Origin: Chloroflexota bacterium | GTDB taxonomy: Bacteria; Chloroflexota; Dehalococcoidia; GIF9; AB-539-J10 | Assembly (NCBI GenBank): GCA_037444365.1 | Contig: JBBIMO010000002.1 | Location: forward strand, 7,871-71,870 | DNA: 64,000 nucleotides | Direction of reading: 5' to 3' | Part shown: positions 1 through 51,084 of the stretch, piece after piece | Numbering within the stretch: position 1 is the stretch's first letter | Layout of the letters: every line of letters starts with the position of its first letter | Program-made: the position numbers and the translations under genes | The notes under the pieces: model-generated | Told to the model about the DNA's origin: nothing | Database searches by the model: none | What the model saw: only the letters and a program-made list of their open reading frames with translations

Positions 1-281
1 CTCAAGGAGGACGTCTGCAAGATCTGGATGTAGCTGTGGAGAAATATGGTGATGCCCTGAATATGACGCTGGCTAGGATAGAGTCGGGACGCGGTAAGGG
101 GCTGGCTACCAGAAACATAACGGCATCTGTGGCTGCGACTACGGCAGAGCATCTTTCTGCACTGAATAATGTCTATGAGACAGCGCCGGAGGAAGCCAAG
201 GCGGCCATAGCAAGAGCGATGGAAAAGGCACGAATAGCTCATGATTGGGCAGCCGAAAGATTGCAGCAGATGGGTCCATGA
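1..281 (+). CDS. 3' end of a DUF5667-like membrane/coiled-coil protein, truncated by the window edge. Paralog of the 2081-3166 gene.
   Basis: The reading frame is open to position 1. It shares a block (KYxxAxNMTLARI...TxNITAxVAxxTxxHL) with the ORF at 2081-3166. Confidence 0.5.
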   Translation, partial: QGGRLQDLDVAVEKYGDALNMTLARIESGRGKGLATRNITASVAATTAEHLSALNNVYETAPEEAKAAIARAMEKARIAHDWAAERLQQMGP

Positions 282-710
282 ACTCCTTCTGCTAGCATGG
301 GGAATACGCGCGGACGTGAAAGAAAGGTAGGCAGAGTAGCGATTCCCGGGTGGGAATTGGCGATACCGCGATTCCACGATAGCCTTGATTCTACGACAAG
401 AGATGTGGTGAATCGGGCATTGCGCTTCCAACGCATGGGAGTGCCAAAGGAGGGCGGTGGAGGGCAGCAAATCAAAGGGGCTTTATCTGACCGAAAGTGA
501 GGTCCTCGGCTTGAGCTCGGAGAATACAGGCAATGAGGAGCCTGCAATGAGGCTTGTTGTCTGTTGTGATAGGCGAGTTAGCGCGATTCAATTTCGGAAA
601 TGACCCCAAGAACTCTCAGGGTGCTTGCTAGGCCAATCTCTCTGTTGAAAGTGCAGCGAGTGATACGGAAAGCACTACAAGCTGCACATTACAAAGAGGT
701 TCAGCGTTAT

Positions 711-1829
711 GTGGCAAGGGTCAGCGTCTTTTTGATTGTAGTAGCCCTGGCTGTTGGAATGGTGGGCTGCGCTTCTTCTCCTGTTGAAGTCAAGGATTGG
801 TATGACTTGGATGCTATTAGACACAACATGAAGGGCTACTATCTTCTGATGAACGACATTGATTCCACCACCCCCGGGTATGAGGATCTGGCGGGCAGGA
901 CAGCCAATGGAGGAAAGGGGTGGCAGCCAATCGGGAATTCCTATAGGCGCTTTGTTGGAAAGTTTGACGGTCAGAGTCATGTGATAGGGGACGTATTCGT
1001 CAATCGGCCTGATGAGGCGCCAGGGGGGCTTTTTGGTGCCGTCGGTAAGGGAGGAGTAATCCAGAATGTCGGCGTGATGAATGCAAGTGTGACTGCCGAG
1101 TGGCTCGTCGGTGCACTGGTGGGGGGTAATTGGGGCACAGTGACGAACTGCTATTCGACCGGGACCGTCACTGGCGATGACTATGTGGGTGGTCTGGTGG
1201 GAGGCAGTGGGGGCGATGTGAGCAATTCCTATTGCACAGCCAGCGTGACTGGCTATCGAGATGTTGGTGGCTTGTTGGGATCTAATGATTGTTACGGCAC
1301 TGTGAGCATGTGCTATTTTGCCGGCAACGTAACTGGCGACTGGGCGATTGGTGGTTTGTTGGGCAGTAATCTCGGCGGCACCATAAGATACTCCTATTCT
1401 GCGGGCAATGTGAGTGGAGGCGATTATGTTGGCAGCCTGGTCGGCGATAATCAGGGCAGCGTGAGCAATTGCTATTCCGTAGGCGACGTGAACGGCGATT
1501 GGCACGTCGGGGGTCTGGTGGGATACAATCAAGGCACTGTAGACAGCTGTTACTCCACTGGTAGAGTGGCTGGCGACTGGCGTGTCGGCGGGCTCATGGG
1601 AAGCAATGAAGGCAGTGTGAGCAAATCGTTTTGGGACGCGCAAACCAGCACACAGGCTACTTCAGATGGCGGAACGCCGAAGACCACCTCAGAAATGAAG
1701 AGTGTCACCACCTTCGCACAATCGAATTGGAATATAGTTGCCGTCACTCCTAGCGTCACCAACCCGAGCTACATCTGGAATATCGTTGAGGGACAGACTT
1801 ATCCCTTCCTTAGCCGTTCATCCTTCTAA
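711..1829 (+). CDS. GLUG-motif repeat surface protein, probably a lipoprotein. The start is uncertain: the track ORF begins at 600, and an internal GTG at 711 with an upstream AAGAGG gives a signal peptide ...ALAVGMVGC.
   Basis: About eight tandem 26-28-aa repeats of the form VGGLVGxNxGxVxNCYSxGxVxGDW, which is the GLUG motif. There is a hydrophobic N-terminus with a Cys lipobox-like site. Confidence 0.7.
   Translation: MARVSVFLIVVALAVGMVGCASSPVEVKDWYDLDAIRHNMKGYYLLMNDIDSTTPGYEDLAGRTANGGKGWQPIGNSYRRFVGKFDGQSHVIGDVFVNRPDEAPGGLFGAVGKGGVIQNVGVMNASVTAEWLVGALVGGNWGTVTNCYSTGTVTGDDYVGGLVGGSGGDVSNSYCTASVTGYRDVGGLLGSNDCYGTVSMCYFAGNVTGDWAIGGLLGSNLGGTIRYSYSAGNVSGGDYVGSLVGDNQGSVSNCYSVGDVNGDWHVGGLVGYNQGTVDSCYSTGRVAGDWRVGGLMGSNEGSVSKSFWDAQTSTQATSDGGTPKTTSEMKSVTTFAQSNWNIVAVTPSVTNPSYIWNIVEGQTYPFLSRSSF
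1017..1635 (+). repeat. Intragenic tandem repeat encoding the GLUG modules. The period is about 78-84 bp with about eight copies.
   Basis: The periodic GDWxVGGLxG...CYSxG units are visible in the translation of the 600-1829 ORF. Confidence 0.6.
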
Positions 1830-2080
1830 GATAGGTTCCCTCCACCCCGGATCCAAACAGCCTGAACAAGTGTCTCTGTGTGCTTTGGCTGCTGGAGTGG
1901 CTGCTAAGGATTGTATTCTGGAGTTTCTCAATCACCCGATTTGAAATCCTTCCCAGTTGTCAACCAAAGGCGGGCGTGCGGCTTGTGGGGCAGAGTCCTG
2001 GCAGGCGTGCTGTAACAAAACGGTAATGGTTTCGTTATAAGGGTTGGGCAAAACTAATACTGAATCGAAGGAGGTTAAGA

Positions 2081-3166
2081 GTGAAGAGGCTCAAAATAAG
2101 AACGGCAGGTGTAATCATAACAATTGTGGTGCTGCTCCTTCTCTTGGTCGGGGGTACCGTTTACGCAGCGCAGGACAGTCTGCCGGGCGACGGGCTCTAC
2201 CCGGTAAAACTCGCTGCTGAGCGGGCGGGGGTTATGCTGAGGGGGAATGACGTTGTGAGAGCAGAAAGAGCTCTAAGCTTCGCCAACAGGAGAGTGAGGG
2301 AAATGGCGATGCTGACTGAAAGGGAACAGCTGCGGTACCTTAGCCCGGCTGTGGGGAAATATGAACAAGCTATGAACATGACACTGGCTCGAATACGAAT
2401 AGTGGCCAACAACAGGCTGCGCACGGGAAACATAACTGCCATGGTAGCTGAGGCTACAACACATCATCTTCTGGTGCTTGATATTGCTTGGGATACAGCA
2501 TCGTCTGAGGGGAAGTTGGCGATAGCACGTGCAAGAGAGGTGGCGCAGAGAGGGCAGGAAAATGCATTGTCAGCCCTGGCAAACGAGAGTCCGGGATGGG
2601 CCATGCAGATTAATCTGGCGGCTATGGGGGAGAGGCTGAACAGGGTGAGGGTGATGGCCGAACATGGGAATACTACGGGCATAGAGAATGCGATATGGCA
2701 GTGTGAGGGAATGACCGTGTTCGGTGACAAGATCTACGGAATCGCGCAACAAGTGGGCAAGGACACGCAGAAGATAGAAGAGTTTGTGGCGTCGGCGGCT
2801 TGTAGACAATTGGAGGAGCTTGCTGAAGTCTGGGGAAGAGTGTCGGAACCGGCTCAACCAGTTATGGAGAGAGTGATGGCCAAGTTGCTCATACAGTATC
2901 GCTGGGCAGCCCGAGCGATGGAACACAGGGGGGTTGAATCGCCCAGGGCTCCAGTTATTCCTGAACCAATTCGACAGCGACTGGAGGAGGGAATCAGGGA
3001 ACAGCAACGGATGCAGCAGCAACAGATGACGTCGATGCAAGAGAGAGCGCAGGAACAGGAGGTGATTCAGGAGCAAGAAAGGGCACGGAAAGAGCAAAGG
3101 ATGCGGGAACAACGCATGGAGGGGAGACTTGGCGGCACAGATGACGTGCTAGCAGGGTGGCCCTAA
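2081..3166 (+). CDS. DUF5667-like membrane-anchored protein with a C-terminal Gln/Glu/Arg-rich coiled coil.
   Basis: It has an N-terminal TM helix, a 'SLPGDGLYPVKLAAE' motif typical of DUF5667, and a QEQERARKEQRMREQRME tail. An RBS (GAAGGAGG) precedes the GTG/ATG start. Confidence 0.6.
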   Translation: MKRLKIRTAGVIITIVVLLLLLVGGTVYAAQDSLPGDGLYPVKLAAERAGVMLRGNDVVRAERALSFANRRVREMAMLTEREQLRYLSPAVGKYEQAMNMTLARIRIVANNRLRTGNITAMVAEATTHHLLVLDIAWDTASSEGKLAIARAREVAQRGQENALSALANESPGWAMQINLAAMGERLNRVRVMAEHGNTTGIENAIWQCEGMTVFGDKIYGIAQQVGKDTQKIEEFVASAACRQLEELAEVWGRVSEPAQPVMERVMAKLLIQYRWAARAMEHRGVESPRAPVIPEPIRQRLEEGIREQQRMQQQQMTSMQERAQEQEVIQEQERARKEQRMREQRMEGRLGGTDDVLAGWP

Positions 3167-3242
3167 GACTATGAGCGACCCGACTTGGGTACTAGGGAAT
3201 CAGTAGCCAGTGGCAAAAAAGATCTGAAAAAGGAGGATAAGC

Positions 3243-4142
3243 ATGAAAAATATTGTACTGGGAGTAGTAATTGTGGCGGTGCTCGTGGCATTGGGAGTAG
3301 GTTGCGGAACTACGGGACAAACATCAGGAACGGGAACCTTGGAACTCTATCTTTCCGATTCGCCAACAGACGCTGAAAATGTTACCGGTGTGTACATCAC
3401 TATTAACGAAATCCAATATCATATGAATGACCAATGGATAACCTGCGAGGAATTCGAGGGCCCCAAAACATATGACTTACTGGAACTAACCAACGGGAAC
3501 TCCGCACTATTAGGCGAGTTAGTATTACCCGGTGGGCATTACAATCAAATTCGCTTCATGCTGGATATTCCACAAATGGGCCAGAATCCGGCCAATCCAG
3601 GCTGCTACATCACATTCGCTGATAATTCCACCCGGCCTCTCTTCGTCCCCAGCGGTAACACGACAGGCTACAAGGCAGTTGGAGCATTTGTTGTGCCAGT
3701 CAACGGAACTGTGGAGATTACTGCAGACTTTGATGTTCGTAAAGCTGTCCAGCTGGCAGCTTCCCACTACATCTTACGGCCAACAATCAGGTTGGTGGTC
3801 AACAACGAAGCAGGGCGCATCTCTGGTTTAATTACCAACGAATCCGGCTACACAGACATAATTGTTTTCGCCTATGCAGATGGAACGTGGACCGACACGG
3901 AAGACGATGAGCCAGTAGCTCCGGACCCCAGATTTCCTAATGCGATTCACAGCGGGAAGATGTGTGACGACGGCCATTACACAATACCCTATTTGGTCGC
4001 CGGAACTTATGATCTGGTTGTCGCCGGGTATAACGGCGCCAGCTTCGAAAAGGTGCTGGGTTTCGTATCCAATGTGGAAGTTGTAAGCAACCGCACCACG
4101 ATTCAACATATAGACACCGATGCTCTGGAGGCTAGCCATTAG
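3243..4142 (+). CDS. DUF4382 domain lipoprotein.
   Basis: It has a signal peptide with a lipobox (LGVGCG). The N-terminal 'LELYLSDSPTDAENVTGVYITINEIQYH...DQW' matches the DUF4382 signature. The RBS is AAAGGAGG. Confidence 0.6.
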   Translation: MKNIVLGVVIVAVLVALGVGCGTTGQTSGTGTLELYLSDSPTDAENVTGVYITINEIQYHMNDQWITCEEFEGPKTYDLLELTNGNSALLGELVLPGGHYNQIRFMLDIPQMGQNPANPGCYITFADNSTRPLFVPSGNTTGYKAVGAFVVPVNGTVEITADFDVRKAVQLAASHYILRPTIRLVVNNEAGRISGLITNESGYTDIIVFAYADGTWTDTEDDEPVAPDPRFPNAIHSGKMCDDGHYTIPYLVAGTYDLVVAGYNGASFEKVLGFVSNVEVVSNRTTIQHIDTDALEASH

Positions 4143-4302
4143 ACCATGTGATTGACTGTTGCTGGATTTATCCGTTGCGGGTACACGATCCAAAACGCTG
4201 TATCCGCAACGGGTAAGTCCTCTCAGAATCTGTACCTGGCGTACTCGTAATGTCTATGGCAAATCGTGTTTGGATTTCGAAAAGAGGCAAAATACTCCTC
4301 GA

Positions 4303-4968
4303 ATGGGCCGGAGCCTGTTTATGAAGAGATACTCTGTAATCCTCCTCACCTGTGGAATCGTCCTTGGCTTACTCATCGTGCCCGGGTTGAGTTGCGTTGC
4401 CTACTACCAGAGCCCGACAGGTACTCTGTTTGGCATGACGGAGTCTGAAATCAGGGCCTACATCACGCCTGAATGCAGTTTGGTTAGGCAAAGTCTGCAA
4501 ACCATCGTTGGTGCTCCCCCGTATGAGCCTTCCAAAAGCGGCTTCGCAGCCATCCGGGATTGGGTTGCTGCTAGTGTCGAATACAAGAGCGACCAGGAGC
4601 AATGGGGCGTTATCGACTATTGGCAGACCCCGGATGAAACATTAGCCCTGCACACCGGAGATTGCGAGGATTTCGCCATTCTGCTTTGTACCCTCCTCAG
4701 AGCGTATGGAATTCCTGCGGAGCAGATGTATGTTGCTGTTGGCGTTGACAATCAAGGGCATGGCCATGCCTTCCTGATAGAGAACTGGTATCTCGGCGGG
4801 GAATGGCGGGCCATAGAGCCGCAGGTGGGCACCCAGACCTTTCCGCCGGGGCGTCGCTTCAAGGACTATAACCTGGCCGATTTTAAACTGCTCCGTGACT
4901 ACGAAATCGTCGCGGGCTTCAATGACTCCTACTATTACGATGCCTCGTTTCCGTGGGATGAAGGTTAA
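4303..4968 (+). CDS. Transglutaminase-like cysteine protease-fold protein, secreted or membrane-anchored.
   Basis: The core is 'HTGDCEDFAILLCTLLRAYGIPA...GHGHAF...EPQ', a Cys/His/Asp transglutaminase-like triad. It has an N-terminal TM/signal segment. The start may be 4303 or 4321. Confidence 0.65.
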   Translation: MGRSLFMKRYSVILLTCGIVLGLLIVPGLSCVAYYQSPTGTLFGMTESEIRAYITPECSLVRQSLQTIVGAPPYEPSKSGFAAIRDWVAASVEYKSDQEQWGVIDYWQTPDETLALHTGDCEDFAILLCTLLRAYGIPAEQMYVAVGVDNQGHGHAFLIENWYLGGEWRAIEPQVGTQTFPPGRRFKDYNLADFKLLRDYEIVAGFNDSYYYDASFPWDEG

Positions 4969-4992
4969 GGAGGGGCACCCTGTGCGGGGGCG

Positions 4993-5928
4993 TCAATAGG
5001 CGGAGATGGGTTGTTTGTCGGTGATAAGTCTCTTCCTGGCAGCTAGCTTCCGGCGGATATGCTTGGGGATGGTGAAGATCCCTTGGTGGGTGAAGCCATC
5101 GTAGGACTTCAGCCTGTTTGAGATTCTGGTTGAGATTCTGGCATCGATTTCCTCTGCTGTCAGCTCACATGGGTCAAGGCTTTGAGAAGCCGCGACGAAG
5201 CCCCACAAGCCAAAGAAGGAGGGCACATGTACTTGATAGGGGCGGGCTATCGGGAAGACGTCTCTTAGAGTATTGACAATAGCGGTGAAGTTGTCCAGAT
5301 TTCTCCAGTCGGAAGGTTCAGCCTGCACTGACATGATGCCGGCTGGCCCAAGTTTCCGTTTAACTATCTGATAGAATTCCCGGGTGTATAGCAAGCGTGC
5401 TGGTCCCTGCTCCAAAGGGTCAACCAGGTCAATGATGATGACATCGAACCTGCCGCTGCTCCTTTCCAGGTATTCTCTGGCGTCAGCAAAATGAAGCTCT
5501 GCCCTGGGGTCATCGAAGGCATTCCGGTGCCAGGAGGGCAAGAAGCGGCGACAGAGACTGACCACCTCTTCATCAATATCCACCATGACAGCCTTCTTCA
5601 CCGTTCTGTGTGCCAGCACCTCTCTTAACGTAGCACCCTCGCCTCCCCCGGCGATAAGCACTCTTTCCGGCCGGGGATGCGTCAGCATGGCTGGATGCAC
5701 CAGAGCTTCGTGATATATGAATTCATCCGCCTCGCTGGACTGGATCTTGCCGTCCAGAACGAGACAAACGCCGAAGCTGCCCGTATTGATGATATCTACG
5801 GACTGAAACTTACTTCGCCCTGAATAAATCCTTTCCTTAGTGCTATGCAGCACAGTGATGTCAGGAGTTATATAGTCAGAGAAGTATTTATGTTTATCAG
5901 GGTCGCTGTCTCTTTTCATTTTATGCAT
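4993..5928 (-). CDS. speE: Polyamine aminopropyltransferase (spermidine synthase).
   Basis: It has VLDGKIQSSEADEFIYHEALVHP and the GGGEGATLREVL and VDIDEEVV motifs. Its 5' end overlaps the 3' end of speH (5916-5928), which lies upstream on this strand. Confidence 0.9.
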   Translation of the reverse strand: MHKMKRDSDPDKHKYFSDYITPDITVLHSTKERIYSGRSKFQSVDIINTGSFGVCLVLDGKIQSSEADEFIYHEALVHPAMLTHPRPERVLIAGGGEGATLREVLAHRTVKKAVMVDIDEEVVSLCRRFLPSWHRNAFDDPRAELHFADAREYLERSSGRFDVIIIDLVDPLEQGPARLLYTREFYQIVKRKLGPAGIMSVQAEPSDWRNLDNFTAIVNTLRDVFPIARPYQVHVPSFFGLWGFVAASQSLDPCELTAEEIDARISTRISNRLKSYDGFTHQGIFTIPKHIRRKLAARKRLITDKQPISAY

Positions 5929-6290
5929 CCAACCTGGCTATCCTCCATGACTCCCCTGCGAAGTTCGATTAAGGAGTGGGATTTGGCTCCCAGCCTCTCT
6001 GTTATGAATTTTGCAGCCTTTTCCGGGTCTACAGTGCTCCCACAGGTGAACACATCCACGGCAGCATATCTGTGCTCCGGCCAGGTGTGAATGGCAATGT
6101 GTGATTCGGCGATATTGACGACTCCGCTTACACCCTGGGGGGAGAAATGATAGAAGGACTCGCCAACTACTGTAGCGCCACATCGAGTGGCAGCTTCGTT
6201 AAGACATTCCTGCAGGAAACCTAGGTCATCTAGCACCTCCTTATTGCAGATTTTCAGTTCTAGTAACAGATGTCTTCCAAGCGCATACAA
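5916..6290 (-). CDS. speH: S-adenosylmethionine decarboxylase proenzyme (small class 1, pyruvoyl-dependent).
   Basis: The sequence FSPQGVSGVVNIAESHIAIHTWPEHRYAAVDVFTCG matches AdoMetDC. An RBS (GGAGGG) lies upstream of the ATG at 6290. Confidence 0.85.
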   Translation of the reverse strand: MYALGRHLLLELKICNKEVLDDLGFLQECLNEAATRCGATVVGESFYHFSPQGVSGVVNIAESHIAIHTWPEHRYAAVDVFTCGSTVDPEKAAKFITERLGAKSHSLIELRRGVMEDSQVGCIK

Positions 6291-6411
6291 ATCACCTTCC
6301 CTCCTTCAAATTTCTTGTTGCCTTTCTAGGCAGCGACGCAAATTTTATATAATGCGCATTCTTTTAGCAATACTCTAAGACTTTCTGTTAGAATAAACGG
6401 GAGCGATACGT

Positions 6412-6645
6412 ATGTCAGCAACCGAATCACTGGCTACTGTGCGCACTTCCAGGTACATGGAGGCGCAGATAATCAAGGGACGCCTGGAGAGTGAAGGCAT
6501 ACCTGTCCTCTTGAGCTATGAGAGCGCCGGCCTGATTTATGGGCTTACGGTTGATGGATTGGGCGAGGTTAAGATAATGGTGCCCCGGCATCTGGCTGCG
6601 GAAGCCAGGGAAATCCTGGAAGTTAGTCTGGGAAGCAAAGAGTAA
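6412..6645 (+). CDS. DUF2007 (putative signal-transducing) small protein.
   Basis: It is 77 aa and resembles DUF2007 (ARxxxAEAQIIKGRLESEGIPV...). It is preceded by an A/T-rich region containing TATATAAT. Confidence 0.5.
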   Translation: MSATESLATVRTSRYMEAQIIKGRLESEGIPVLLSYESAGLIYGLTVDGLGEVKIMVPRHLAAEAREILEVSLGSKE

Positions 6646-6692
6646 GTTCTGAATTCTGCTGTGTAGTTTTGAGTTTTGTCGTTTGATTTTTC

Positions 6693-8165
6693 ATGGCCTC
6701 AAGATTAGAGCGCGTAACTGAGCAGCGACTGGAGAGCCTGAACAGAATTCGGGCCCGCGGCATGGATCCCTATCCTCATTCCTACCTTCCCAGCCATACT
6801 ATTCGAGAGGCGATGATTCTCTTTGTTGCGCACGAGGCTGAAGCCTCACACTCCAGCATATCGCTGGCTGGTCGCATGATGTCCAAGCGTTCTATCGGTA
6901 AGATGTCCTTTGCTGATATTCGCGATGGCTCGGGGAAGATACAGCTTTCTTTTCGCTACGACCTCCTGGGCAAGGAGAAATACGAATTTCTTCAGGACAT
7001 TGATATTGGAGACATTATCGGGGCTACAGGTAGACTCTTCCGGACAAAAGCCGGAGAACTCACTCTGGAGGTGTCCGATTTTGCCATGCTCTGTAAATCA
7101 CTGCGTCCATTGCCGGAGAAATGGCATGGGCTGGCTGACGTAGAAAAACGCTATCGTCAAAGATATCTCGACCTGATTTCTAACGAAGAGAACAGAAACA
7201 CTTTTGTCCTGCGTAGCAAGACTATCACTGCCCTAAGGGGTTTTCTTGACAGCCGAGGGTTCATGGAGGTAGAAACCCCTGTCCTTCAGCCTCATGCCGG
7301 CGGAGCGATGGCACGCCCTTTTGTCACTCATCACCACGCCCTTAACCAGGACCTCTACTTACGAATTGCTCTGGAGCTCCACCTCAAAAGACTGGTGGTC
7401 GGTGGCTTCGACAGGGTCTATGAGATCGGACGCACCTTTCGCAACGAGGGCATTTCTACCATGCATAACCCGGAGTTTACTTTGCTCGAGTGTTATCAGG
7501 CCTACGCCGATTACAATGACATCATGAGGTTGGTTGAGGAGATGTTCTCTCACCTGGCAAAAAGCGTTCTCGGCGACACCAGGATTACGCGTAATGGCCA
7601 GACTGTTGACTTCGGTCACCCGTGGCAAAGAGTATATCTTCGCCAGGCAATAAAGGATTGCTGCGGCATTGATTTTGAAGGCTATCCTGATGCCGCCTCA
7701 CTGAGGGCGCGGATGGCGGAGCTCAATATGGATGTTGATCCGACTAAAGGGAAAGGCAAGCTGATAGAAGACTTGATTTCCACTTTTGTGGAGCCAAGAC
7801 TTGTTCAGCCTACGTTTCTTCTGGATTACCCGGTGGAAATGTCGCCTCTGGCCAAGAGGAAGAGGGGGGATGATCAGTTGGTGGAGAGGTTTGAGGGTTT
7901 CGTGTATGGTATGGAGGTTGCTAACGCCTTCACTGAGCTCAATGACCCGCTGGAGCAAAGAGAGAGGTTTCGCCAGCAACTGCAGGACCGGGTAGGTGAT
8001 GAGGAAGCGGAAATCGGAGACGAGGATTTTCTCCAGGCTCTGGAGTACGGTATGCCGCCCACTGGCGGATTGGGAGTAGGCATTGACCGACTGGTGATGC
8101 TGCTCACCGGGCAGCAATCTGTCCGGGAAGTGATACTATTTCCCCAGCTAAAGACGATGAAATGA
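6693..8165 (+). CDS. lysS: Lysine--tRNA ligase (class II).
   Basis: It has FRNEGISTMHNPEFTLLECYQAYADY and the class II motifs, with an N-terminal OB anticodon-binding region. Confidence 0.95.
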   Translation: MASRLERVTEQRLESLNRIRARGMDPYPHSYLPSHTIREAMILFVAHEAEASHSSISLAGRMMSKRSIGKMSFADIRDGSGKIQLSFRYDLLGKEKYEFLQDIDIGDIIGATGRLFRTKAGELTLEVSDFAMLCKSLRPLPEKWHGLADVEKRYRQRYLDLISNEENRNTFVLRSKTITALRGFLDSRGFMEVETPVLQPHAGGAMARPFVTHHHALNQDLYLRIALELHLKRLVVGGFDRVYEIGRTFRNEGISTMHNPEFTLLECYQAYADYNDIMRLVEEMFSHLAKSVLGDTRITRNGQTVDFGHPWQRVYLRQAIKDCCGIDFEGYPDAASLRARMAELNMDVDPTKGKGKLIEDLISTFVEPRLVQPTFLLDYPVEMSPLAKRKRGDDQLVERFEGFVYGMEVANAFTELNDPLEQRERFRQQLQDRVGDEEAEIGDEDFLQALEYGMPPTGGLGVGIDRLVMLLTGQQSVREVILFPQLKTMK

Positions 8166-8227
8166 GTAGGCAGTAGTCAGCAGTCAGAATTGATCTGAAA
8201 TCTGATTGCCTAAATCTGGAAACTGAA

Positions 8228-9478
8228 ATGCTTGATATTAAGCTGATTCGTGAGAAACCTGAGTTCGTTCGGGAGGCTCTGCAGAAAAGGGGAGATAGCT
8301 TTGCTCTCGATAGGATTCTGGAGATTGACGCACATTATCGAAACTCGCTCCGTCAGACCGAGGAACTCCGCGCCAAGCATAACGAAGCGAGCAAGAAGCT
8401 GGGACAGAGCAAAGAAAAGCCGCCCAAACTGATCGCCGAGATGCGCCAACTCGGAGAGCAGATATCATCGTTACAGCAGCAGACGAAGGAATCCAAGGCC
8501 GGCCTTGATTCCCTGCTGTTGGAGCTGCCCAACATCCCCCACCACAGCGTGCCTCTGGGAAAAGGCGCGCCTGATAATCTGGTAGTGCGTAGCTGGGGGA
8601 AGCCAAAGGAATTCCCCTTCAAGCCCTTGCCTCACTGGGAGTTAGGAGAAAGGCTGGGCATCATAGATTTCCAGCAAGGGGTGAAGCTCTCAGGGACCAG
8701 GTTCTATGTGCTCAAGGGACTGGGGGCACATCTTCAGCGAGCCCTTATCTCATTTATGCTCGATGTTCACGCAGACGAGCATGGCTACAAGGAAATCTAT
8801 CCTCCCTTCATGGTCAAGAGAGAGTGCATGGTCGGCTCCGGAAATCTACCTAAGTTCGGCGATAACTTGTACCACGATGAACAAGACGACTTCTGGTTCA
8901 TACCTACGGCAGAAGTCCCGCTGACTAACCTGCACCGCGACGAAATACTGAGTGGCGGCAATTTGCCTATTCGGTACGTCGCCTACACGCCCTGCTTTCG
9001 CCGCGAGAAGATGTCCGCCGGCAAAGACATCAGGGGCATCAAGCGAGGACACCAGTTTGACAAAGTGGAGCTCTACAAGGTTACCGACCCTGAGACTTCC
9101 GACGAGGAGCTGGAGAAACTGGTAGCTGATGCCGAGGACATTTGTCGGAAGCTGGACATAGCTCATCGTGTGGTGCAACTATGCACCGGAGACCTGGGGT
9201 TTGCAGCCTGCAAAACATACGATATTGAAATGTGGGCTCCTGGCTGCGCTGAATGGCTGGAGGTCAGTTCCTGCAGCAATTGCGGCGATTTTCAAGCCAG
9301 GCGAGCCAATATCCGCTACCGCCCTGAGGCTGGCGCCGGGACAGAGTTTGTTCACACGCTCAATGGCTCAGGACTGGCTTTGCCGCGGGTCCTTATCGCT
9401 GTGCTGGAAAACTATCAGCAACCTGATGGCACAGTATTAATCCCCGAGGTGTTGGAGCCTTATCTGAGAGTAGCCTAG
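8228..9478 (+). CDS. serS: Serine--tRNA ligase.
   Basis: It has the N-terminal coiled-coil arm (MLDIKLIREKPEFVREALQKRG...) and the class II core. Confidence 0.95.
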   Translation: MLDIKLIREKPEFVREALQKRGDSFALDRILEIDAHYRNSLRQTEELRAKHNEASKKLGQSKEKPPKLIAEMRQLGEQISSLQQQTKESKAGLDSLLLELPNIPHHSVPLGKGAPDNLVVRSWGKPKEFPFKPLPHWELGERLGIIDFQQGVKLSGTRFYVLKGLGAHLQRALISFMLDVHADEHGYKEIYPPFMVKRECMVGSGNLPKFGDNLYHDEQDDFWFIPTAEVPLTNLHRDEILSGGNLPIRYVAYTPCFRREKMSAGKDIRGIKRGHQFDKVELYKVTDPETSDEELEKLVADAEDICRKLDIAHRVVQLCTGDLGFAACKTYDIEMWAPGCAEWLEVSSCSNCGDFQARRANIRYRPEAGAGTEFVHTLNGSGLALPRVLIAVLENYQQPDGTVLIPEVLEPYLRVA

Positions 9479-18478: not shown

Positions 18479-19621
18479 CTATGGTCCGGGGATAACATGC
18501 CAGAGACACATCCAGTTCGCCCACGGTATGGCTACATTTTCGGGGGTGGTCGCCCAGTTATCGTGGACGATAACCCAGTCGGCTGAAGGTATCGGGCCTG
18601 CACCATCGGGGTCCCAGTTCAGAATATACCCAACGCCGGTGACCGCATGTCCGATATCGCCGTAAGTCCAGCTCTCGGGAGGGTTAGGCGGAAGCGAACT
18701 GGATTGGTAACTCCCCCAAACAAATACAGATATTGTCTCTCCAGTCTGGGGATCTGGGAAACTAGCTTTAGATATGGGGTTCCAGTAGTCAAAAGCGACG
18801 ACCAATGGTCGGCCGTTGTTAATTTCATTCTTGTAGAAATTCAGGGTTGCATTGTAATTCACGTCACAAGTCATAACCAGCCCGCAATTGTAACCAAGTT
18901 TCCCGGCGGGGAGACCGAAGGGGGGAGGAGTGGCGGGTGGTGGCGCGGGTGGGTGGGTAGCGTCCCAGCGGACATAATCGATAGTCCCGGGTATTACGTC
19001 AAGTCTGTGGGTTCCCAACAGGCCAGGATTATTAACTCGGTCGGGGCTGCCCAGATTATTGGTATCCATAAAATAGCCGAGGTACTCCGCCACCGTCTCG
19101 GGTGGGAGACCGGCGGTCACGTTTTGAGCACTGGCGTTGTTGGCTACGTCGTCCCAATACTCCAGGACATTGGCCACCGCCATCGGAGCACAGAAATTGG
19201 TGGGGTTGGGAGGCGGCAAGGTGTTAGTAGGTGGCTGGTTTGCGTCGGGGACATTTTCTATGAAAGCCATCACAAACGCGAAGCGAGCGGTGACCGTGGC
19301 GTTTTGAGCCGGCATGGTGTAGGTAGTCTGGGCAGCAGTTGCATTAGCAAATGTGCCCGCTGTCGCCGTCCAGTTCACAAACCGGTAGCCAGTACTTGGA
19401 GTGGCGTTGAAGTTAACCACCGTGCCATTGCTATAGGTAAACATCGTTGTCCCAGGGATGGTTACATTGTTAACCGCGACTGCACCTCCAGCAGTACTTG
19501 TGACGGTGAGGGTGTAGGACCCACCACCTCCGCCGCCACCCCCACCGCAGCCGATGACGTTGACAAAAAGCGTGAATAACAGGACTGTGACTACGGCAAG
19601 TGAGATTAGTTTGTGTTTCAT
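18479..19621 (-). CDS. Secreted lipoprotein with an N-terminal InlB-B-repeat-like beta domain and a C-terminal papain/C39-like putative cysteine-peptidase domain.
   Basis: An RBS (AAAGGAGG) precedes the ATG. It has a signal peptide with the lipobox VIGC followed by a Gly9 linker. 'SYTLTVTS...GYRFVNW' resembles a bacterial repeat domain. A Cys in 'NFCAPMAVANVLEYW' and a His in 'GHAVTGVGY' suggest a thiol-protease fold. Confidence 0.5.
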   Translation of the reverse strand: MKHKLISLAVVTVLLFTLFVNVIGCGGGGGGGGGSYTLTVTSTAGGAVAVNNVTIPGTTMFTYSNGTVVNFNATPSTGYRFVNWTATAGTFANATAAQTTYTMPAQNATVTARFAFVMAFIENVPDANQPPTNTLPPPNPTNFCAPMAVANVLEYWDDVANNASAQNVTAGLPPETVAEYLGYFMDTNNLGSPDRVNNPGLLGTHRLDVIPGTIDYVRWDATHPPAPPPATPPPFGLPAGKLGYNCGLVMTCDVNYNATLNFYKNEINNGRPLVVAFDYWNPISKASFPDPQTGETISVFVWGSYQSSSLPPNPPESWTYGDIGHAVTGVGYILNWDPDGAGPIPSADWVIVHDNWATTPENVAIPWANWMCLWHVIPGP

Positions 19622-50903: not shown

Positions 50904-50995
<92 letters not shown>

Positions 50996-50996
50996 G

Positions 50997-51084
50997 CGGA
51001 GAGGGTGGGATTCGAACCCACGCTCCGATATAATCGGAGACCGCTTTTCGAGAGCGGCACCATAATCCTCTCGGTCACCTCTCC
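50997..51084 (-). tRNA. tRNA-Ser (anticodon CGA), class II. No CCA is encoded.
   Basis: The reverse complement has acceptor GGAGAGG/CCTCTCC, anticodon stem CCGCT/AGCGG with loop CTCGAAA, and the same T-arm. A single nucleotide separates it from the other tRNA-Ser. Confidence 0.8.

What the first reader, a model, noticed from the sequence alone, without database searches (positions are those of the whole stretch)
1..4968. Surface-protein cluster: GLUG-repeat lipoprotein between two DUF5667 paralogs, followed by a DUF4382 lipoprotein and a transglutaminase-like protease
There are five consecutive same-strand genes for exported or membrane-anchored proteins. The GLUG protein carries about eight tandem 26-28-aa repeats. 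GLUG modules are best known from IgA-protease-associated adhesins. Its two flanking genes are clear paralogs of each other and share an internal KYxxAxNMTLARI block. The second has a long Q/E/R coiled-coil tail. The arrangement looks like a dedicated envelope or adhesion module, perhaps with a DUF5667 duplication event. Intragenic tandem repeats also make this a candidate contingency or length-variable locus.
Basis: partly seen in the sequence, partly recalled or inferred. Interest (0 to 1): 0.5.

Follow-up and report, generated by a model that had tools for sequence, protein, structure and literature searches.

The report
Sigma-factor-controlled envelope protein gene cluster
The five genes are the downstream part of a conserved Dehalococcoidia signalling locus in which membrane proteins carrying the uncharacterised DUF5667 domain appear to act as anti-sigma sensors for an alternative (ECF) sigma factor that switches on surface lipoproteins and a LapG-like protease; this is an undescribed variant of a familiar regulatory scheme, not a repeat-driven adhesin locus.

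Summary
There are five same-strand genes for exported proteins, and the Pfam calls are significant: Glug, DUF5667, DUF4382 and a BTLCP/transglutaminase-fold protease.

The interpretation needs changing.
- **DUF5667 genes pair with a sigma factor.** In 70 of 76 related loci an ECF sigma-factor gene lies directly upstream of a DUF5667 gene. That gene's product has a conserved cytoplasmic N-terminal domain, one membrane helix and a helical-repeat ectodomain, which is the layout of an anti-sigma factor.
- **Gene 1 is the tail of the anti-sigma gene.** The closest relatives (Glug about 80% identical) read sigma, anti-sigma (263 aa), Glug, DUF5667, DUF4382, protease. The sigma gene therefore lies just beyond the window's 5' end.
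- **Gene 3 is a paralogue that lost its N-terminal domain.** A decayed remnant sits at 1859-2026, with a TAA stop. Gene 3 kept an ECF-type promoter (GTAAC-N16-CGTT, 2011-2037), the only such site in 64 kb. It probably drives gene 3, DUF4382 and the protease.
- **Not a contingency locus.** The GLUG repeats are diverged at the DNA level and constant in number across orthologues.

Verdict: a new variant of a known kind (ECF sigma/anti-sigma), moderately interesting.

The parts
3..281 (+). g1: last 92 codons of a roughly 263-aa DUF5667 anti-sigma factor gene. Its start and the ECF sigma gene lie beyond the window's 5' end.
   Evidence: 77-80% identical to residues 173/174-262/263 of L086/L089 DUF5667 proteins, which overlap the stop of an ECF sigma gene by 4 nt. 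Custom DUF5667 HMM E 2.5e-27.
282..710 (+). Long spacer between g1 and the Glug gene. It is conserved with the closest relatives only. Function unknown.
   Evidence: Alignment A2. No Rfam match. No ECF promoter. Terminator-like hairpins occur no more often than in shuffles.
711..1829 (+). g2: Glug-repeat lipoprotein. The likely start is GTG 711; the longest ORF starts at ATG 600. It has a signal peptide with lipobox VGMVG-C20, an N-terminal cap, 7-8 GLUG units and a C-terminal 'FWD..TS...GG.GKT..EM' tail.
   Evidence: Pfam Glug E 2.6e-26. Repeat spacing. Orthologue starts. Lipobox rule. Profile A3 hits the beta-helix region of pneumococcal IgA1 protease structures at E 2.5e-9 to 4.5e-8 (beta-helix residues per PMC7695701).
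1859..2026 (+). Decayed, in-frame remnant of the cytoplasmic N-terminal (putative sigma-binding) domain of the g3 ancestor. It lacks the first ~25 codons and ends in TAA at 2024-2026.
   Evidence: tblastn of intact relatives runs through it in the g3 frame. It scores 9.1 bits against the NTD profile, E 5.6e-5, and 0 of 2000 shuffles reach that score (max 4.6). L089 has the same junction.
2011..2037 (+). ECF-type promoter: -35 TGTAACA (2011-2017), -10 CGTTA (2033-2037), spacing GTAAC-N16-CGTT.
   Evidence: The motif was derived from sigma-gene upstream regions (59/78 loci). It recurs upstream of NTD-less DUF5667 genes in 29/42. A PWM scan of all 64 kb on both strands gives this single hit, 35.2 bits.
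2069..2073 (+). Shine-Dalgarno GGAGG, 7 nt before the GTG start of g3.
   Evidence: Read directly from the sequence.
2081..3166 (+). g3: DUF5667 paralogue without the cytoplasmic domain. It has a signal peptide or anchor with a VYA|AQ site, a helical-repeat ectodomain and a long Q/E/R tail. It is fast-evolving.
3243..4142 (+). g4: DUF4382 lipoprotein (lipobox LGVG-C21) with two beta-sandwich domains.
4321..4968 (+). g5: exported BTLCP / LapG-like transglutaminase-fold cysteine protease, 215 aa. Invariant residues are Cys115, His149 and Glu166.
   Evidence: Pfam Peptidase_C93 and Transglut_core. The best solved relatives are LapG 4u65_E at E 7e-8 and 4fgo at E 2e-6. Invariant columns in alignment A5. 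The start is as called in L001.

Best explanation
The region is the distal part of an ECF sigma / anti-sigma locus that is conserved in Dehalococcoidia.

**Inferred layout.** An ECF sigma gene lies just upstream of the window and is translationally coupled to g1. The g1 product has a conserved ~95-residue cytoplasmic N-terminal domain that would hold the sigma factor, one membrane helix and a DUF5667 helical-repeat ectodomain that would sense an envelope signal.

**Inferred action.** When the anti-sigma factor is inactivated, most likely by regulated proteolysis, the sigma factor transcribes from GTAAC-N16-CGTT promoters. One sits in front of its own operon (seen in relatives). One sits at 2011-2037 in the window. 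The window copy would drive g3 and, by read-through, the DUF4382 lipoprotein g4 and the LapG-like protease g5.

**The individual genes.**
- g3 descends from a second anti-sigma gene that lost its cytoplasmic domain. It is now an exported, sigma-induced copy of the sensor ectodomain.
- The Glug beta-helix lipoprotein g2 is a constant neighbour, but it has no ECF promoter of its own.

**What is shown and what is inferred.** Shown: the domain identities, the synteny, the promoter motif and its uniqueness in the window, and the decayed remnant. Inferred: sigma binding by the N-terminal domain, the operon structure, the signal and the protease's substrate.
For: 1. **Sigma adjacency.** In 76 species-level loci found with the DUF5667 profile, 71 carry an ECF sigma gene. 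In 55 of them it lies directly before NTD-DUF5667, and in 15 more directly before a DUF5667 gene. The median sigma-to-NTD gap is 8 nt, and some pairs overlap.
2. **Closest relatives.** L089/L090 and L086-88 (Glug 79% identical) read sigma, DUF5667 (262/263 aa, 4-nt overlap with the sigma stop), Glug, (DUF5667), DUF4382, protease. g1 is 77-80% identical to the C-terminus of that anti-sigma protein.
3. **Family architecture.** Alignment A1 shows a conserved N-terminal domain, a membrane helix, an invariant YA[AS]QxSLPGD motif and helical repeats. Basic residues precede the helix and acidic residues follow it, which fits an N-in orientation.
4. **Promoter.** GTAAC-N16-CGT occurs upstream of sigma genes in 59/78 loci and of NTD-less DUF5667 genes in 29/42, g3 included. 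A PWM built from sigma promoters alone gives 203 + strand hits against 9 - strand hits over 1.7 Mb of loci. It gives one hit in the 64-kb window.
5. **Promoter outlasts the ORF.** In L086-88, where the g3 ORF has been lost, the same promoter sits 160 nt upstream of DUF4382.
6. **Protease linkage.** DUF4382 is the immediate upstream neighbour of the protease in 40/55 loci. A sigma gene lies within 4.5 kb in 18/26. The protease directly follows sigma and anti-sigma in L019, L021-23 and L040.
7. **Domain fusion.** In L110 and about ten other loci the same N-terminal domain and membrane helix are fused to two DUF4382 domains instead of DUF5667.
8. **Weak homology hints.** The sigma factor is closest to the BldN ECF family. 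The anti-sigma protein gives a weak 'anti-sigma factor' NCBIfam hit, E 5e-4.
Against: - The sigma gene itself is not in the window, and the source contig could not be retrieved. Its presence rests on relatives.
- The N-terminal domain has no significant similarity to any Pfam or solved anti-sigma domain. AF2 confidence for it is only moderate.
- The promoter is a motif prediction with no transcript data.
- Glug (0/26) and the protease (0/19) have no ECF promoter of their own. Their control by the sigma factor rests on gene order and on the lack of convincing terminators.
- g3 is unusually divergent, and its counterpart was lost in L086-88. It may contribute little.
Confidence: 0.7

Rival explanations
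1. This is a stand-alone envelope or adhesion module. The DUF5667 proteins are structural surface proteins that act with the Glug beta-helix, and the nearby sigma factor in relatives is only a neighbour.
For: All five products are exported. Glug repeats are homologous to the beta-helix of a surface protease. The DUF4382 fold resembles pilin, adhesin and carbohydrate-binding modules. Many DUF5667 genes lack the cytoplasmic domain.
Against: Sigma-DUF5667 adjacency in 70/76 loci with overlapping or near-overlapping reading frames is typical of sigma/anti-sigma pairs. The NTD-less DUF5667 genes carry the same promoter as the sigma genes. The cytoplasmic domain is the most conserved part of the long proteins.
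Confidence: 0.12
2. g3 is a dying pseudogene remnant with no function. Only g1, g2, g4 and g5 matter, and the retained promoter serves g4-g5 alone.
For: The N-terminal domain is decayed and carries a stop codon. g3 deviates at 43/148 conserved positions. Identity to its L089 counterpart is 42%, against 63-79% for its neighbours. The ORF was lost in L086-88 while the promoter stayed.
Against: The 361-codon ORF is intact, with a GGAGG site and a signal sequence. All 35 invariant family residues are kept. The truncation junction is shared with L089, so the ORF has stayed open since before those lineages split. NTD-less DUF5667 genes with this promoter are a regular feature of the family (29/42).
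Confidence: 0.25
3. This is a LapG/LapA-like release system. The BTLCP protease g5 cleaves the Glug or DUF4382 lipoprotein off the cell surface to control attachment, and the sigma factor only sets expression.
For: g5's closest solved relatives are LapG proteases. It is exported, and it is tightly linked to the DUF4382 lipoprotein (40/55).
Against: The LapG equivalog model scores 45.9 bits against a cutoff of 320. No LapD-type receptor, type I secretion genes or giant adhesin are in the neighbourhood. No TAAG-type site is evident near the N-termini of g2 or g4. The organism is most likely a single-membrane Chloroflexota member.
Confidence: 0.2
4. This is a contingency locus in which the intragenic GLUG repeats expand and contract.
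For: There are eight tandem 26-28-aa units.
Against: There is no DNA tandem repeat. The repeats are only 81-88% identical over 16 nt. Spacing is identical in orthologues at 55-83% identity.
Confidence: 0.02

Closest known systems
ECF sigma / single-pass anti-sigma systems activated by regulated proteolysis, especially sigmaV-RsiV and sigmaP-RsiP, where signal peptidase makes the site-1 cut (PMC4183432, PMC6066255, PMC8844934)
   Same: A sigma gene is followed by a co-directional, coupled gene for an N-in single-pass membrane protein. The promoter is autoregulatory, with 'AAC' in the -35 element and 'CGT' in the -10 element. An invariant AXA-type site (VYA|A, AYA|S) sits at the outer end of the membrane helix, where RsiV and RsiP are cut.
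   Different: The cytoplasmic domain matches no known anti-sigma domain family. The sensor is a DUF5667 helical repeat, or in some loci DUF4382, not the RsiV or RsiP ectodomain. The locus carries extra NTD-less sensor paralogues and a BTLCP protease. No proteolysis has been shown.
sigmaBldN-RsbN of Streptomyces (ECF sigma controlling surface-sheath proteins)
   Same: The best NCBIfam model for the sigma factor is the BldN family, TIGR02952, at 157 bits. The anti-sigma is membrane-bound and co-transcribed downstream. The targets are secreted surface proteins (my own knowledge of BldN).
   Different: The score is below the family cutoff of 206, so it is not an equivalog. The phylum is different. 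Similarity of the anti-sigma proteins was not detected.
LapG / BTLCP periplasmic cysteine proteases (PMC3032545, PMC4359373)
   Same: Transglutaminase-like fold family Peptidase_C93 with the DYWxTPxE...GDCEDFA active-site block. The protein is exported.
   Different: No LapD, LapA or type I secretion context. It is far below the LapG equivalog cutoff. The acidic triad residue is Glu rather than Asp. It is linked to DUF4382 and an ECF sigma factor instead.
GLUG beta-helix of Gram-positive IgA1 metalloproteases (PDB 6xja, 6xjb, 7uvk; PMC7695701)
   Same: The GLUG repeats align to chain residues 159-325 of 6xjb. These fall inside the described beta-helix, residues 781-1070 of the full protein.
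   Different: g2 is a 372-aa lipoprotein made only of the helix and its caps. It has no protease, G5 or LPXTG parts.

Membership tests
ECF sigma / anti-sigma pair | An ECF sigma gene is adjacent to and co-directional with the gene for the membrane protein | tested here: met
   Met in relatives: 70/76 loci. The closest relatives L086-L090 show a 4-nt overlap. In the window itself the sigma gene would lie beyond base 1 and could not be seen.
ECF sigma / anti-sigma pair | The cytoplasmic domain is homologous to a known anti-sigma domain (for example zf-HC2 / class I ASD) | tested here: not met
   No Pfam family at E<=1. No solved structure at E<0.1 with profile A6. The only hit is a weak NCBIfam NF052375 'anti-sigma factor', E 5e-4, 20 bits against a cutoff of 100.
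ECF sigma / anti-sigma pair | Physical binding and inhibition of the sigma factor | not testable with these tools
   This needs a complex prediction or an experiment.
ECF sigma / anti-sigma pair | An autoregulatory promoter with conserved -35 'AAC' and -10 'CGT' elements | tested here: met
   GTAAC-N16-CGT lies about 40 nt upstream of the sigma gene in 59/78 loci. Strand bias is 203 to 9. The window copy is at 2011-2037.
Pfam DUF5667 (PF18915) | Score above the gathering threshold | tested here: met
   g3 scores 45.6 bits against a cutoff of 27. The g1 fragment gives no Pfam hit, but it is 77-80% identical to Pfam-positive proteins.
Pfam Glug (PF07581) | Repeated GLUG motif above threshold, with a beta-helix fold | tested here: met
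   90.6 bits against a cutoff of 20.5, 6 stretches. A profile match to the IgA1 protease beta-helix at E 2.5e-9. No structure was predicted for g2 itself.
Pfam DUF4382 (PF14321) | Score above the gathering threshold | tested here: met
   109.8 bits against a cutoff of 25.
BTLCP / Peptidase_C93 | Family score above threshold, an export signal and a Cys-His-acid triad | tested here: met
   47.8 bits against a cutoff of 27. Cys115, His149 and Glu166 are invariant in 10 relatives. There is an N-terminal hydrophobic signal. The acid residue is Glu, not Asp.
LapG proper (Lap adhesin-release system) | LapG equivalog score, a LapD receptor and a type I-secreted adhesin in the genome context | tested here: not met
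   NF045674 scores 45.9 bits against a cutoff of 320. The neighbours are speE, speH, lysS and serS, with no LapD or adhesin-like gene.
Bacterial lipoproteins | A lipobox matching the PROSITE PS51257-type rule with Cys at 15-35 | tested here: met
   g2 has VVALAVGMVG-C20 and g4 has VAVLVALGVG-C21. The Cys is conserved in orthologues. g5 'PGLSC' narrowly fails, and g3 has no lipobox. No dedicated predictor was available.
Contingency / phase-variable repeat locus | Near-identical tandem DNA repeats, or copy-number variation among close relatives | tested here: not met

The most novel reading that the evidence does not exclude
The ECF promoter in front of g3 is a fossil of a promoter that, in intact anti-sigma genes, lies inside the coding sequence. 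There the same 30 bases encode the conserved linker peptide AVTKWPWSRY and also form GTAAC-N16-CGTT. The sigma factor would then transcribe, from within its own anti-sigma gene, a version lacking the sigma-binding domain: an exported sensor ectodomain that could act as a decoy or partner and give feedback.

The tightly linked BTLCP protease, which lies downstream of the same promoters, could be the dedicated protease that cuts these ectodomains at the invariant site next to the membrane.

Supporting observations:
- 17 of 73 long genes carry the full motif in frame, mostly in loci without a separate short DUF5667 gene.
- At the motif, codon choice is GTA 14/14, ACA 14/14 and CGT 13/14, against background frequencies of 0.26, 0.29 and 0.11.
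- In the window and in L089 the motif is intact while the surrounding coding sequence has decayed and acquired stop codons inside the spacer.

Caveat: the sequences are related, so these counts are not independent events.
Probability: 0.3. Interest if true: 0.6.

Novelty: new variant of a known kind. Interest (0 to 1): 0.45.

Why it matters
- **A role for DUF5667.** DUF5667 is a large family. The profile finds 18,493 clusters at 50% identity with E<=1e-3, and 5,855 with E<=1e-10. No paper in the searched library mentions it. Placing it as the sensor domain of an ECF anti-sigma family gives it a testable role. The family also has an unclassified sigma-binding domain, a defined promoter motif and a small regulon: NTD-less sensor copies, DUF4382 lipoproteins, a LapG-like protease and a small Cys-rich secreted peptide.
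- **An entry point into Dehalococcoidia.** These bacteria are mostly uncultured and little is known about how they regulate their envelope. A sigma factor, a promoter and their targets can be tested in a heterologous host.
- **A general caution.** A 'surface protein cluster' read from one window can be the output half of a regulatory locus cut by the window edge.

Tried and rejected
- **Source contig.** I could not retrieve it to see the bases upstream of position 1. Only a 2.3-kb Logan contig carrying g4-g5 came back, and the g3 product was 'not on record'.
- **Contingency locus.** Rejected.
- **RNA elements.** Rfam found nothing in 1-6500.
- **Terminators.** The simple scan gave no more hits than shuffles, so it neither supports nor breaks the proposed operon.
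- **ECF promoter upstream of Glug, DUF4382 and the protease.** Absent, except for DUF4382 in L086-88.
- **Homology of the N-terminal domain to known anti-sigma domains.** Nothing significant from Pfam, NCBIfam or a PDB profile search.
- **Fold searches with the full-length relative.** They returned only designed helical repeats and HEAT/TOG/14-3-3-like scaffolds, so no functional lead.
- **DUF4382 model.** It matched only generic beta-sandwich surface modules.
- **LapG-type TAAG cleavage motif.** Not evident in g2 or g4. The YA[AS]Q site in DUF5667 is as well explained by signal peptidase.
- **Recoded stop codon at 2024-2026.** Rejected, because the upstream domain is also truncated and decayed, and L089 has two stop codons at other positions.

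Full report
**1. What is in the window**

Positions 1-4968 hold five + strand ORFs.
- **g1 (3-281)** runs off the 5' end.
- **g2** (longest ORF from ATG 600; by homology with orthologues it starts at GTG 711; ends 1829) hits Pfam Glug at E 2.6e-26.
- **g3 (2081-3166)** hits DUF5667 at 45.6 bits against a cutoff of 27.
- **g4 (3243-4142)** hits DUF4382 at E 1.5e-31.
- **g5** (ORF from 4159; real start ATG 4321, 215 aa, as called on an identical Logan contig) hits Peptidase_C93/BTLCP and Transglut_core.

The next genes are speE and speH on the opposite strand, then a DUF2007 gene, lysS and serS.

g2 has seven clear GLUG units spaced 26, 26, 28, 27, 26, 26 residues, plus a degenerate first unit. 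g2 and g4 satisfy the PROSITE-type lipobox rule. g3 has a signal peptide or anchor ending in VYA|AQ. g5 has an N-terminal hydrophobic segment ending in PGLSC.

**2. Not a contingency locus**

- Tandem Repeats Finder reports nothing in the Glug gene.
- The best internal DNA repeats are 16 nt at 81-88% identity.
- Orthologues at 55-83% protein identity keep the same number and spacing of units.

The repeats are old and diverged structural units. A profile of the orthologues matches the solved pneumococcal IgA1 proteases at E 2.5e-9 to 4.5e-8. The match covers chain residues 159-325 of 6xjb, which lie inside the beta-helix described for that enzyme (PMC7695701). The beta-helix expectation is thus supported by homology.

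**3. What the DUF5667 genes are**

Homologues of g3 are almost all from Dehalococcoidia/Chloroflexota metagenome bins. Most are longer than g3. Alignment A1 shows, in order:
- a strongly conserved ~95-residue N-terminal domain (NTD);
- a basic stretch and one hydrophobic helix;
- an invariant YA[AS]QxSLPGD..Y..KL motif;
- the Pfam DUF5667 segment and further helical modules;
- a Q/E/R-rich tail.

I scanned one genome per species with this profile and annotated the 76 loci with profiles built here. Of these, 71 carry an ECF sigma gene. It lies directly before NTD-DUF5667 in 55, and directly before a DUF5667 gene in 15 more. The median gap is 8 nt, and some pairs overlap. The adjacency extends to a few Anaerolineae and candidate-phyla-radiation genomes.

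This is the arrangement of sigma/anti-sigma pairs. The charge distribution fits an N-in single-pass protein whose DUF5667 part faces outward.

The NTD itself has no significant Pfam, NCBIfam or PDB relative. The only hit is a 20-bit match to an NCBIfam 'anti-sigma factor' model. The anti-sigma assignment therefore rests on context and architecture, not homology.

The sigma factor is closest to the BldN ECF family, below that model's cutoff.

**4. Where the window fits**

The nearest relatives by Glug identity (79%) are L089/L090 and L086-L088. They read: ECF sigma, DUF5667 protein of 263/262 aa (4-nt overlap with the sigma stop), Glug, a DUF5667 protein of 327 aa (L089) or scraps of one (L086), DUF4382, BTLCP protease.

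g1 is 77-80% identical to the last 90 residues of the 263/262-aa proteins. So g1 is the tail of the anti-sigma gene. The sigma gene should begin about 1.1 kb before the window. This is an inference, because the source contig could not be retrieved.

No sigma gene or intact NTD occurs anywhere in the 64 kb.

**5. What g3 is**

tblastn of intact long relatives aligns through the g3 start into 1859-2026, in the same frame and across a TAA at 2024-2026. Taken alone, that 63-residue stretch scores 9.1 bits against the NTD profile (E 5.6e-5), and none of 2000 shuffles exceeds 4.6 bits.

The first ~25 codons of the NTD are missing. The remnant starts right after the Glug stop. L089 has the same junction, with two stop codons at other positions. 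A single ancestral deletion therefore removed the 5' part of a second anti-sigma gene. The rest of its NTD has since decayed.

The downstream ORF has stayed open in both lineages. It has a GGAGG site 7 nt before GTG 2081. g3 keeps all invariant family residues. It nevertheless deviates at 43 of 148 conserved ectodomain positions, far more than any other member. It is only 42% identical to its L089 counterpart, while its neighbours are 63-79% identical. In L086-88 the ORF is gone.

g3 is thus an orphaned sensor ectodomain under relaxed or altered selection.

**6. The promoter**

Enumerating spaced word pairs upstream of the sigma genes gave TGTAACA...TCGTTA (GTAAC-N16-CGT) in 59 of 78 loci, about 40 nt before the start codon. 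This has the -35 'AAC' and -10 'CGT' signature known for ECF promoters (my own knowledge).
- The same motif precedes NTD-less DUF5667 genes in 29 of 42 cases. These include g3, at 2011-2037, 70 nt before its start.
- A matrix built only from sigma-gene promoters finds 203 sites on the gene strand and 9 on the other strand across 1.7 Mb of loci.
- A matrix scan of the whole window on both strands finds only this one site, at 35.2 bits.
- Glug (0/26) and the protease (0/19) lack the motif.
- DUF4382 has it only in L086-88. There the lost g3 ORF leaves the promoter 160 nt upstream of DUF4382.

Short gaps separate the genes (76 and 178 nt in the window), and no terminators exceed chance. Together this suggests a g3-g4-g5 transcription unit under the sigma factor.

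**7. Links among DUF4382, the protease and the sigma system**

I searched metagenome contigs with the protease profile.
- DUF4382 is its immediate upstream neighbour in 40 of 55 loci with enough flank.
- A sigma gene lies within 4.5 kb in 18 of 26.
- In another sub-clade the protease directly follows sigma and anti-sigma, without Glug or DUF4382 (L019, L021-23, L040).
- In L110 and about ten other loci the same NTD and membrane helix are fused to two DUF4382 domains in place of DUF5667. A DUF4382 lipoprotein and the protease follow.

This fusion ties DUF4382 to the signalling system.

The protease's closest solved relatives are LapG enzymes (4u65_E at E 7e-8; 4fgo at E 2e-6). Cys115, His149 and Glu166 are invariant. 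It is far below the LapG equivalog cutoff and has no LapD or adhesin context, so it is a BTLCP family member but not LapG.

**8. Proposed mechanism**

Only steps a and d have direct sequence support. Steps b, c and e are inference.
- **a.** Sigma and anti-sigma (g1) are co-expressed. Supported by context in relatives.
- **b.** The NTD holds the sigma factor at the membrane. Inferred.
- **c.** An envelope signal sensed by the DUF5667 repeat leads to removal of the anti-sigma factor. Inferred. The invariant AXA-type site at the outer end of the helix recalls RsiV and RsiP, which signal peptidase cuts at site 1 (PMC4183432, PMC8844934). The linked BTLCP protease is an alternative candidate.
- **d.** The freed sigma factor uses GTAAC-N16-CGTT promoters. 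Supported by motif evidence.
- **e.** In this genome that means its own operon and g3-g4-g5. In relatives it also includes a small Cys-rich secreted peptide. Glug is a constant neighbour of unknown control.

**9. Novelty and score**

The scheme is a known kind (ECF sigma/anti-sigma). The parts are undescribed.
- No paper in the library mentions DUF5667, and one mentions DUF4382 in passing.
- None links ECF sigma factors, anti-sigma factors and Dehalococcoidia.
- The family is large, at 18,493 clusters with E<=1e-3.

I rate it a new variant of a known kind, with interest 0.45.

The most novel reading still open is that the promoter is normally embedded in the anti-sigma coding sequence.
- 17 of 73 long genes carry it in frame as AVTKWPWSRY.
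- Codon choice at the motif is GTA 14/14, ACA 14/14 and CGT 13/14.
- g3's promoter would be the surviving fossil of such a site.

Relatedness of the sequences limits the weight of these counts.

Noticed in passing
L086:5295-5555, L011:877-1137, L016:2695-2937, L093:722-982, L106:1935-2195 (not in the window; would lie upstream of base 1): A small secreted Cys-rich peptide gene (68-116 aa; signal peptide plus an ECLCGECPCGECVCGDCDP-like motif) has its own ECF promoter (23-28 bits). It sits just upstream of the sigma gene or between Glug and sigma. More distant loci (L052, L060, L065) have analogous Cys/Pro-rich small ORFs behind the same promoter.
   Followed up: partly
L110:3687-5153 (also L108, L112-L114, L119, L123, L125, L137, L142, L144): A 488-aa protein carries the anti-sigma N-terminal domain and membrane helix fused to two DUF4382 domains instead of DUF5667. 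It lies after an ECF sigma gene and before a DUF4382 lipoprotein and the protease.
   Followed up: partly
long anti-sigma genes, e.g. L017:8923+, L021:10019+, L033:6329+, L024:8751+; window 2009-2041 as the decayed counterpart: The ECF promoter motif lies inside the coding sequence of 17/73 long anti-sigma genes, in frame as AVTKWPWSRY. Codon choice is strongly biased toward the promoter bases. Loci with a separate short DUF5667 gene mostly lack it.
   Followed up: partly
window 282-710: The unusually long spacer (about 430 nt) between g1 and Glug is conserved with L086/L089 at about the level of coding sequence. It has no Rfam match, no ECF promoter and no convincing ORF. It remains unexplained.
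   Followed up: partly
L008:3720-3911; L110:3530-3730; L113:4318-4533: Short ORFs (63-71 aa) encode only the first half of the anti-sigma N-terminal domain. They lie directly upstream of a complete anti-sigma gene. They may be duplicated fragments or stand-alone mini-proteins.
   Followed up: no
L022:414-1055, 3271-3933, 4195-4827: Three paralogous BTLCP protease genes surround one sigma/anti-sigma pair in a single Dehalococcoidia genome.
   Followed up: no
window 4993-9478 and the same genes in L005, L008, L011, L013, L015, L091 and others: The sigma/DUF5667 locus is repeatedly found next to speE-speH (opposite strand), a DUF2007 gene, lysS and serS. This is a stable chromosomal position across many Dehalococcoidia.
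   Followed up: no
window 50905-51084: Two tRNA-Ser genes (anticodons gga and cga) lie head to tail with no spacer on the - strand.
   Followed up: no
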